From Escherichia coli (lineage in GTDB: Bacteria > Pseudomonadota > Gammaproteobacteria > Enterobacterales > Enterobacteriaceae), in the NCBI RefSeq assembly GCF_003334255.1, contig NZ_QOWU01000019.1: 64,000 nt of DNA; one strand, given 5' to 3'. The translations under genes were made by a program, and so were the position numbers. Positions 16,398 to 16,416 of the stretch are shown in pieces. Numbering within the stretch: the stretch's first letter is position 1; every line of letters begins with the position of its first letter. The notes beneath the pieces are model-generated. The model searched no databases. It was given only the letters and a program-made list of their open reading frames with translations, and was not told the origin of the DNA.

Positions 16398-16416
16398 ACA
16401 AATCTCCGGCTGGTTA
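16398..16416. repeat. IS50/Tn5-like (IS4-family) terminal inverted repeat, solo end
   Basis: Minus-strand sequence CTGTCTCTTATACACAAAT matches the IS50 outside end / Tn5 mosaic end at 17 of 19 positions; no partner end found within ~1.6 kb. Confidence 0.35.

What the first reader, a model, noticed from the sequence alone, without database searches (positions are those of the whole stretch)
16398..16416. Solo IS50/Tn5-like terminal repeat
CTGTCTCTTATACACAAAT (minus strand) differs at only two positions from the IS50 outside end and the Tn5 mosaic end, and no partner end or IS50 transposase is evident nearby. It could be a relic of an IS4-family element. It also resembles the transposase-based library adapter sequence, so contamination or an assembly artefact should be excluded.
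Basis: seen in the sequence. Interest (0 to 1): 0.3.

Follow-up and report, generated by a model that had tools for sequence, protein, structure and literature searches.

The report
Broken-off end of insertion sequence ISEc13
The Tn5-like 19-base motif is the genuine outer tip of a 154-base leftover of ISEc13, a known E. coli relative of IS50/Tn5, whose body was lost after another insertion sequence landed in it; it is ordinary genomic debris, not adapter contamination.

Summary
The motif CTGTCTCTTATACACAAAT is real, but it lies at 16416-16434 (minus strand), 18 bases right of the stated coordinates. It has 2 mismatches to both the IS50 outside end and the Tn5 mosaic end, against about 0.01 such matches expected per window.

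It is the terminal repeat of a 154-bp relic (16281-16434) of ISEc13, a known 1550-bp element of the IS4 family, IS50 subgroup. The 19 bp are identical to the reference ISEc13 end, and the relic is 91% identical over its whole length. Intact ISEc13 encodes a 457-aa transposase 39% identical to Tn5 transposase. Its other end is identical to the IS50 inside end (19/19).

The relic stops about 14 bases short of the transposase start codon. There it abuts the terminus (GTAAGCGCCCC) of a decayed IS66-family element at 16280.

One E. coli genome (E7-1N7) still has a full-length ISEc13-like copy at the identical junction, 32 bp downstream of fbpC. That is the likely ancestral state.

The same junction occurs in about 45-61 independent complete genomes, so adapter contamination and misassembly are excluded. 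No partner end or transposase remains in the window.

Verdict: already known, inert, low interest.

The parts
16416..16434 (-). 19-bp terminal inverted repeat (outside-end-like) of ISEc13, CTGTCTCTTATACACAAAT. The element terminus is at 16434 and the interior runs towards lower coordinates.
   Evidence: Searches place it. It is identical to the first 19 nt of the ISEc13 copy of E2348/69. In a five-copy alignment, homology stops exactly after ...GAGACAG.
16281..16434 (-). ISEc13 relic: nt 1 to about 154 of the element, that is the terminal repeat plus the 5' leader. It ends about 14-17 nt before the transposase ATG.
   Evidence: It is 91.1% identical to ISEc13 of E2348/69, 92.4% to the copy next to fbpC in E7-1N7, and 54.7% to IS50. 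blastn of full-length copies matches only 16281-16434/47. Alignment A1.
16419..16427 (-). TTATACACA inside the terminal repeat. This is the same 9-mer that in the IS50 outside end is the DnaA box (consensus TTATNCACA).
   Evidence: Read directly from the sequence. The DnaA-box identity rests on established knowledge of IS50. Binding was not tested here.
16397..16422 (-). Degenerate copy of the leader hairpin that overlaps the inner part of the terminal repeat in ISEc13.
   Evidence: The reference ISEc13 end folds at -22.1 kcal/mol, z = -4.26. The window copy folds at -12.4 kcal/mol, z = -0.56, with two mismatched pairs (alignment).
16270..16280 (-). Terminus of an IS66-family element (GTAAGCGCCCC read on the minus strand). 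It abuts the ISEc13 relic and defines where the relic is cut.
   Evidence: Sequence. Matches to IS66-family copies in other genomic contexts end at query position 581/582, which is window 16280/16281.
15914..16280 (-). Decayed IS66-family remnant with a tnpA pseudogene at 15960-16198. The inner boundary is uncertain and lies between about 15700 and 15914.
   Evidence: PGAP annotation of the identical sequence in strain G1/2: IS66-like accessory protein TnpA, frameshifted, with an internal stop and incomplete. Extents of homology.
16435..16466 (-). 32-bp spacer between the fbpC stop codon and the ISEc13 terminus. It holds only the proximal arm (GGTCCCC, 16445-16451) of the hairpin that follows fbpC in genomes without the insertion.
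   Evidence: Alignment A2 with O157 86-24, C10 and GF3-3. The O157 version folds into a hairpin (centroid -17 kcal/mol). The window version has no stable fold (centroid 0).
16467..17525 (-). fbpC (afuC-type ABC transporter ATPase), the gene whose 3' flank received the insertion. This is context, not part of the relic.
   Evidence: ORF list. RefSeq annotation of identical sequence.

Best explanation
The motif is the outer terminal inverted repeat of a dead, one-ended fragment of ISEc13, an IS4-family, IS50-subgroup insertion sequence common in E. coli.

Shown: a full-length ISEc13-type element once sat 32 bp downstream of fbpC, inside the hairpin that follows that gene. Its outside-like end faced fbpC. 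A genome with this arrangement still exists.

Shown for the junction, inferred for the order of events: an IS66-family element inserted into the ISEc13 leader at about nt 154, just upstream of the transposase start. The rest of ISEc13 (transposase gene and inside-like end) was then deleted, as part of the IS-driven scrambling of this pathogenicity-island region.

What remains is 154 bp: the 19-bp end with its DnaA-box 9-mer, a decayed leader hairpin and the untranslated leader. With one end and no transposase it cannot move. It most likely has no function. Its only likely effect on the host is that the original insertion destroyed the stem-loop downstream of fbpC.
For: The motif is located and is not a chance match.

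The 154-bp segment recurs in 3152 of 5426 complete E. coli genomes, and homology ends exactly at the CAG terminus.

In other genomes it is followed directly by an IS4/Tn5-family transposase gene. RefSeq names that gene 'IS4-like element ISEc13 family transposase'.

The reference copy in E2348/69 is 1550 bp. It has ends CTGTCTCTTATACACAAAT and CTGTCTCTTGATCAGATCT, an 8-bp target duplication, and a 457-aa transposase 38.8% identical to Tn5 transposase (E = 2e-95). The frameshifted Nissle 1917 copy's N-terminal ORF hits PDB 1MUH/3ECP at E = 3e-43, and its ORFs match NCBIfam NF033590 (IS4 family transposase) and NF049926 (IS4/Tn5 transposase DNA-binding domain).

The relic is 91-92% identical to ISEc13 copies.

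Strain E7-1N7 carries a full-length ISEc13-like pseudogene copy with the identical junction GACAG|CTGAGCTGGAGGGGACC next to fbpC.

The IS66-family terminus is at 16280. This is shown by the GTAAGCG... end, by the tnpA pseudogene, and by independent IS66 copies whose homology stops there.

No other ISEc13 DNA or protein remnant is in the window.
Against: No target-site duplication can be shown for this copy. One end is missing here, and in E7-1N7 the two flanks are not duplicates.

The order of events, IS66 insertion and then deletion, is inferred from the junction. A single IS66-mediated adjacent deletion, or recombination between IS copies, would leave the same structure.

Whether the DnaA-box 9-mer or the leader promoter still does anything was not tested.
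Confidence: 0.95

Rival explanations
1. Nextera/Tn5 mosaic-end adapter contamination or an assembly chimera at this position.
For: The first 16 bases of the motif are identical to the mosaic end CTGTCTCTTATACACATCT.
Against: Positions 17-18 differ from the adapter. The motif continues inward into 135 more bases that are 91-92% identical to the ISEc13 leader. The exact sequence and both junctions are present at 100% identity in many independently sequenced complete genomes, for example G1/2, ST69 and NCTC9082. The junction with fbpC occurs in 45-61 genomes. A more diverged genome (E7-1N7, 94%) has the same junction with a full-length element.
Confidence: 0.01
2. A relic of IS50/Tn5 itself, a former Tn5 insertion, rather than of a distinct resident insertion sequence.
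For: There are only 2 mismatches to the IS50 outside end.
Against: Beyond the 19-bp end the relic is only 54.7% identical to IS50 in a global alignment, against 91% to ISEc13. The 19 bp are identical to the ISEc13 end, not to the IS50 outside end.
Confidence: 0.01
3. The solo end has been co-opted: as a DnaA-binding site, as a substitute transcription stop for the afu/fbpC operon, or as an end that can still be mobilised in trans together with a second ISEc13 or IS50 end.
For: The TTATACACA 9-mer is intact. The relic sits 32 bp after the fbpC stop codon, where the native hairpin was destroyed. The terminal 19 bp are undamaged although the rest has diverged by 8-9%.
Against: The leader hairpin is degraded in this copy (z = -0.56, against -4.26 in the reference), and no terminator-like site is detected there. 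No second end exists within the 64-kb window. Nineteen intact bases in a 154-bp relic that is 91% identical is within expectation. Similar relics lie at many unrelated mosaic junctions on chromosomes and plasmids, which fits debris better than function.
Confidence: 0.04

Closest known systems
ISEc13 (IS4 family, IS50 subgroup; named in RefSeq as 'IS4-like element ISEc13 family transposase'; 27-29 places in EPEC E2348/69)
   Same: The terminal 19 bp are identical. The whole 154-bp relic is 91% identical to nt 1 to about 157 of the E2348/69 copy. It has the same leader hairpin position and the same orientation relative to where the transposase gene would start.
   Different: Only about 10% of the element is left. 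There is no transposase gene, no inside-like end and no target duplication. The hairpin carries two disrupting substitutions.
IS50 / Tn5 (outside end, inside end; engineered mosaic end)
   Same: 17 of 19 positions match both the outside end and the mosaic end, including the TTATACACA DnaA-box 9-mer. The parent element ISEc13 has an inside-like end identical to the IS50 inside end (19/19, with its GATC sites). Its transposase stop codon is at the same place inside that end. It has a YREK-type transposase homologous to Tn5 transposase over its full length.
   Different: The transposases are only 38.8% identical. The leader is unrelated in sequence (54.7% in a global alignment) and longer: the ATG lies about 170 nt from the end, against 93 nt in IS50. 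One checked ISEc13 copy has an 8-bp target duplication, while IS50 is known to make 9 bp.
Solo insertion-sequence ends and IS graveyards at module junctions of E. coli pathogenicity islands and F-type or ColV plasmids
   Same: ISEc13-type end fragments of 150-165 bp with no annotated feature occur at unrelated junctions. Examples are next to espL2 in O157 OI-122-type islands, next to the RepFIB replication initiator gene in pAPEC-O2-ColV, in Shigella plasmids, and beside rluA in K-12.
   Different: Nothing of substance. This copy is one more instance, here bounded by an IS66-family end.

Membership tests
IS4 family, IS50 subgroup (Table 1 of De Palmenaer et al. 2008, PMC2266710) | Terminal sequence fits the subgroup consensus CW------Y---CA-A--W- | tested here: met
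   CTGTCTCTTATACACAAATA has C1, T2, T9, C13, A14, A16 and T19, so every specified position agrees (sequence, consensus).
IS4 family, IS50 subgroup | Single-ORF DDE transposase with the Y(2)R(3)E(6)K motif | tested here: not met
   The window holds no transposase remnant. The parent element does meet the feature: the ISEc13 transposase of E2348/69 contains ...HYERRWLIEEYHKAWK... (Y-2-R-3-E-6-K), and the frameshifted Nissle 1917 copy's ORFs match NF033590 and Tn5 transposase structures. The locus is therefore a fragment of a member, not a complete member.
IS4 family, IS50 subgroup | Element size 1350-1550 bp with two terminal inverted repeats | tested here: not met
   Only 154 bp and one end are present in the window. 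Full-length relatives are 1541-1550 bp with both ends.
IS4 family, IS50 subgroup | 8-9 bp target-site duplication | not testable with these tools
   One end is missing at this locus. The E7-1N7 full-length copy at the same site shows no duplication. The E2348/69 copy downstream of mog shows an 8-bp duplication, CCGCTCGG.
ISEc13 specifically | High nucleotide identity to a copy that RefSeq names ISEc13, with the end of homology at the element terminus | tested here: met
   143 of 157 aligned positions (91.1%) match, and the first 19 nt are identical. Homology stops at the CAG terminus in all five aligned copies. At 91%, by the usual ISfinder practice as I know it, it would count as a diverged ISEc13-type variant rather than an isoform. 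I could not consult the ISfinder entry.
IS50 / Tn5 itself | Sequence identity to IS50 beyond the 19-bp end | tested here: not met
   54.7% in a global alignment of the 154 bp with IS50 nt 1-154 taken from pMAK2.
Nextera adapter (mosaic end) artefact | Exact mosaic-end sequence at a junction that is private to one assembly | tested here: not met
   There are two mismatches to the mosaic end. The junction is shared by 45-61 complete genomes.

The most novel reading that the evidence does not exclude
ISEc13 and IS50 have almost the same ends although their transposases are only 39% identical. The inside end is identical at 19/19, and the outside-like end matches the engineered hyperactive mosaic end at 17/19. 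The most novel reading not excluded is that the two systems cross-recognise each other's ends. Resident ISEc13 ends, including solo ends like this one, would then be substrates for Tn5 transposase, and ISEc13 transposase could act on Tn5-derived constructs. A solo end paired with another ISEc13 or IS50 end could then move the adjacent afu/uhpC module.
Probability: 0.1. Interest if true: 0.35.

Novelty: already known. Interest (0 to 1): 0.08.

Why it matters
It matters little biologically. It is one more unannotated insertion-sequence scar marking a module junction in a pathogenicity-island region, here between the iha side and the afu/uhpC sugar-phosphate transport module.

Two practical points follow:

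- The natural ISEc13 end shares its first 16 bases with the Nextera/Tn5 mosaic-end adapter. From my own knowledge of common trimming tools, which match short adapter prefixes, genuine E. coli reads crossing ISEc13 ends could be clipped as adapter. I did not test this.
- RefSeq annotation shows no feature over these relics, so they are easy to misread as novel intergenic motifs.

Tried and rejected
- **ISfinder name from the literature.** The exact 19-mer occurs in no held paper. 'IS50-like' with E. coli gave nothing. Reznikoff et al. 2004 (PMC532410) is not held. ISSfl4 was considered and rejected because it is about 2.6 kb. The name ISEc13 finally came from RefSeq annotation of intact copies.
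- **Second end or transposase remnant in the window.** None found.
- **Target duplication.** I looked at the full-length copies of Nissle, O157 and E7-1N7 and found none. Only the E2348/69 copy near mog has one, of 8 bp.
- **Is the adjacent IS66-type remnant ISEc8?** It is not. The only ISEc8-like piece is a different 70-bp fragment at about 14660-14729.
- **Intrinsic terminator in the relic.** None was detected. The hairpin is degraded in this copy.

Full report
**Observation.** The string CTGTCTCTTATACACAAAT is in the window on the minus strand, at 16416-16434. The finding's coordinates (16398-16416) are 18 bases too far left and share only one base with the motif. The motif has 2 mismatches to the Tn5 mosaic end and 2 to the IS50 outside end. 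It is the only site in 64 kb within 3 mismatches of either, and shuffles give 0.01 expected. I verified the reference IS50 ends on a real IS50R copy in Salmonella plasmid pMAK2: outside end CTGACTCTTATACACAAGT, inside end CTGTCTCTTGATCAGATCT.

**Context.** The window is E. coli chromosome and is 100% identical over the tested 2 kb to strains G1/2, ST69, NCTC9082 and others. The motif lies 32 bp downstream of the stop codon of fbpC (16467-17525, minus strand). fbpC is the last gene of an afu-type ABC transporter / uhpC / two-component module, inside an integrase-bearing island that also carries iha and many insertion-sequence fragments.

**What the motif belongs to.**
- The 183 bp between an IS66-type end and fbpC were searched against 5426 complete E. 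coli genomes. Query positions 1 to 151/152 recur in 3152 genomes, on chromosomes and plasmids, at 73-92% identity. The match ends exactly at the CTG...CAG terminus. A plasmid search gave a similar result: E. coli, Shigella, Salmonella and Klebsiella plasmids match from query position 1, with the listed hits running to about 164-169.
- An alignment of five copies (window, Nissle 1917, O157:H7, K-12, pAPEC-O2-ColV) shows homology up to ...GTGTATAAGAGACAG and unrelated sequence immediately beyond it. This is the behaviour of a mobile-element terminus.
- In O157 and Nissle the segment is followed on the inner side, after about 14-17 nt, by the ATG of an 'IS4/Tn5 family transposase'.
- The Nissle copy is 1541 bp. 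Its far end reads CTGTCTCTTGATCAGATCT.
- Its N-terminal ORF matches Tn5 transposase structures (1MUH, 3ECP; E = 3e-43). Its ORFs match NCBIfam NF033590 (IS4 family transposase) and NF049926 (IS4/Tn5 transposase DNA-binding domain).
- A later search returned intact copies that RefSeq names 'IS4-like element ISEc13 family transposase', with 27-29 places in EPEC E2348/69.
- The E2348/69 copy downstream of mog is 1550 bp. It begins with CTGTCTCTTATACACAAAT, identical to the window motif, and ends with the exact IS50 inside-end 19-mer. It is flanked by an 8-bp duplication (CCGCTCGG) and encodes a 457-aa transposase 38.8% identical to Tn5 transposase (E = 2e-95) with a Y-2-R-3-E-6-K motif.
- These features fit the IS50 subgroup as defined by De Palmenaer et al. 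2008: 1350-1550 bp, ends CW------Y---CA-A--W-, YREK motif, 8-9 bp duplications (PMC2266710).
- The window relic (16281-16434) is 91.1% identical to ISEc13 nt 1 to about 157, but only 54.7% identical to IS50. It is therefore an ISEc13-type relic, not a Tn5 scar.

**How it became a solo end.**
- At 16280/16281 the ISEc13 homology stops. The sequence GGGGCGCTTAC abuts it, which reads GTAAGCGCCCC on the minus strand. GTAAGCG is the typical IS66-family terminus (my own knowledge).
- This is followed by a decayed IS66-type tnpA pseudogene at 15960-16198.
- IS66-family copies in other genomic contexts lose homology to the window at exactly 16280/16281. This position is therefore a true IS66 end lying inside the ISEc13 leader.
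- No further ISEc13 DNA or protein remnant exists in the window.
- I built a chimeric query joining the next 197 bp of an uninterrupted ISEc13-type copy to window 16281-16520. It found one genome, E. coli E7-1N7, that matches end to end at 94.3%.
- In that genome a full-length ISEc13-like copy (1383-nt transposase pseudogene with an internal stop) sits next to fbpC. Its junction is the same as in the window: GACAG|CTGAGCTGGAGGGGACC.
- The insertion next to fbpC is therefore older than the split between these lineages, and the window shows a derived state. Inferred: an IS66-family element inserted at about nt 154 and the inner part of ISEc13 was then lost. An IS66-mediated adjacent deletion or IS-IS recombination would give the same structure.

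**Effect on the host locus.** In genomes where fbpC has other neighbours (O157 86-24, C10, GF3-3), similarity to the window runs from fbpC up to GGGGACC at 16445-16451 and then fades. In those genomes a stem-loop (for example ACGGUCCCC...GGGACCGU, centroid -17 kcal/mol) follows the stop codon. In the window only the proximal arm survives and no stable fold remains. The insertion therefore went into, or deleted, the distal half of that stem-loop. No replacement terminator is detectable. The ISEc13 leader hairpin is strong in the reference (-22.1 kcal/mol, z = -4.26) but degraded here (-12.4 kcal/mol, z = -0.56).

**Artefact hypothesis.**
- The motif shares its first 16 bases with the Nextera mosaic end but differs at positions 17-18.
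- It is continuous with 135 further bases of ISEc13 leader.
- The same junctions are found in 45 records (at least 99% identity over 16284-16466) to 61 genomes (at least 99% over 16381-16800), from different laboratories.
- Contamination or a chimeric assembly is excluded as far as sequence comparison can exclude it.

**Function.** With one end, no transposase and no partner end within 64 kb, the relic cannot transpose. It most likely does nothing. The intact TTATACACA 9-mer, which is the DnaA box of the IS50 outside end by established knowledge, is one more potential DnaA site. I found no evidence that it matters.

**Verdict.** It is an already known kind of object, a fragment of an already named element, and of low interest.

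One mildly notable point concerns ISEc13 itself rather than this locus. Its ends are far closer to those of IS50 (19/19 and 17/19) than its transposase is (39%). That leaves cross-recognition between the two systems as an untested possibility.

Noticed in passing
L013:1303-2852 (ISEc13 in E2348/69) compared with L014:1801-3334 (IS50R in pMAK2): The inside-like end of ISEc13 is identical to the IS50 inside end over all 19 bp, including the GATC sites and the position of the transposase stop codon. Its outside-like end matches the engineered mosaic end at 17/19. The two transposases are only 38.8% identical, so the ends are far more conserved than the protein.
   Followed up: partly
L005:2604-2656 (also L012:4794 onward, L013:1303 onward, L004:2708 onward): At the inside-like end of ISEc13 the terminal sequence is followed at once by its own inverted copy: CTGTCTCTTGATCAG-ATCTC-CTGATCAAGAGAC. 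This gives a roughly 15-bp hairpin that spans the last codons of the transposase gene. Its role is unknown.
   Followed up: no
window 16435-16451; L013 about 2853-2870: Both ISEc13 copies whose target could be read sit inside a GC-rich stem-loop just downstream of a gene. At fbpC it is the hairpin. At mog it is the stem-loop CCCCCCGCTCGGGGGG followed by a T-run, with an 8-bp duplication. The K-12 relative also lies just downstream of rluA, next to CCCTTAGGATGAGGG. This may be a target preference, but with n = 2-3 it is only an anecdote.
   Followed up: partly
L003:3001-3167 (E. coli K-12, between yabQ and rluA, record coordinates 59487-59653): K-12 carries a more diverged relic (73.7% identity) of the same kind of end, followed by a 179-bp 'transposase DNA-binding' pseudogene. 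RefSeq shows no feature over the end fragment itself.
   Followed up: partly
window 14660-14729: A second, separate IS66-family end fragment: 84% identical to nt 25-94 of the ISEc8-containing stretch taken from strain C10, with terminus ...GGACGCTTAC at 14729. It lies among other transposase pseudogene fragments, so 13.5-16.3 kb is an insertion-sequence graveyard between iha and the afu module.
   Followed up: partly
window 24542-26713: A tyrosine integrase gene (24542-25723, minus strand) lies directly beside ulaE (25898-26713), and ARAGORN finds no tRNA gene anywhere in the window. From memory, ulaE in K-12 is about 855 bp, against 816 bp annotated here. The island therefore seems to be integrated within or at the edge of the ula operon rather than at a tRNA gene. 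The attachment site was not examined.
   Followed up: no
L006:4001-4166 (pAPEC-O2-ColV) and many F-type, ColV and Shigella plasmids: The same unannotated ISEc13-type end fragment, about 165 bp at 88% identity, recurs on 392 plasmids. In pAPEC-O2-ColV it lies about 300 bp from a RepFIB-type replication initiator gene. The plasmid copies listed mostly share the same extent (query 1-164) and identity, which suggests one old relic inherited with the replicon region.
   Followed up: no
L008:175-2616 (E. coli C10): In strain C10 the position just beyond the fbpC hairpin is occupied by an intact ISEc8 (IS66 family). In O157 and GF3-3 fbpC is followed directly by frmR. The 3' flank of the afu module is therefore a recurrent recombination or insertion junction.
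   Followed up: partly
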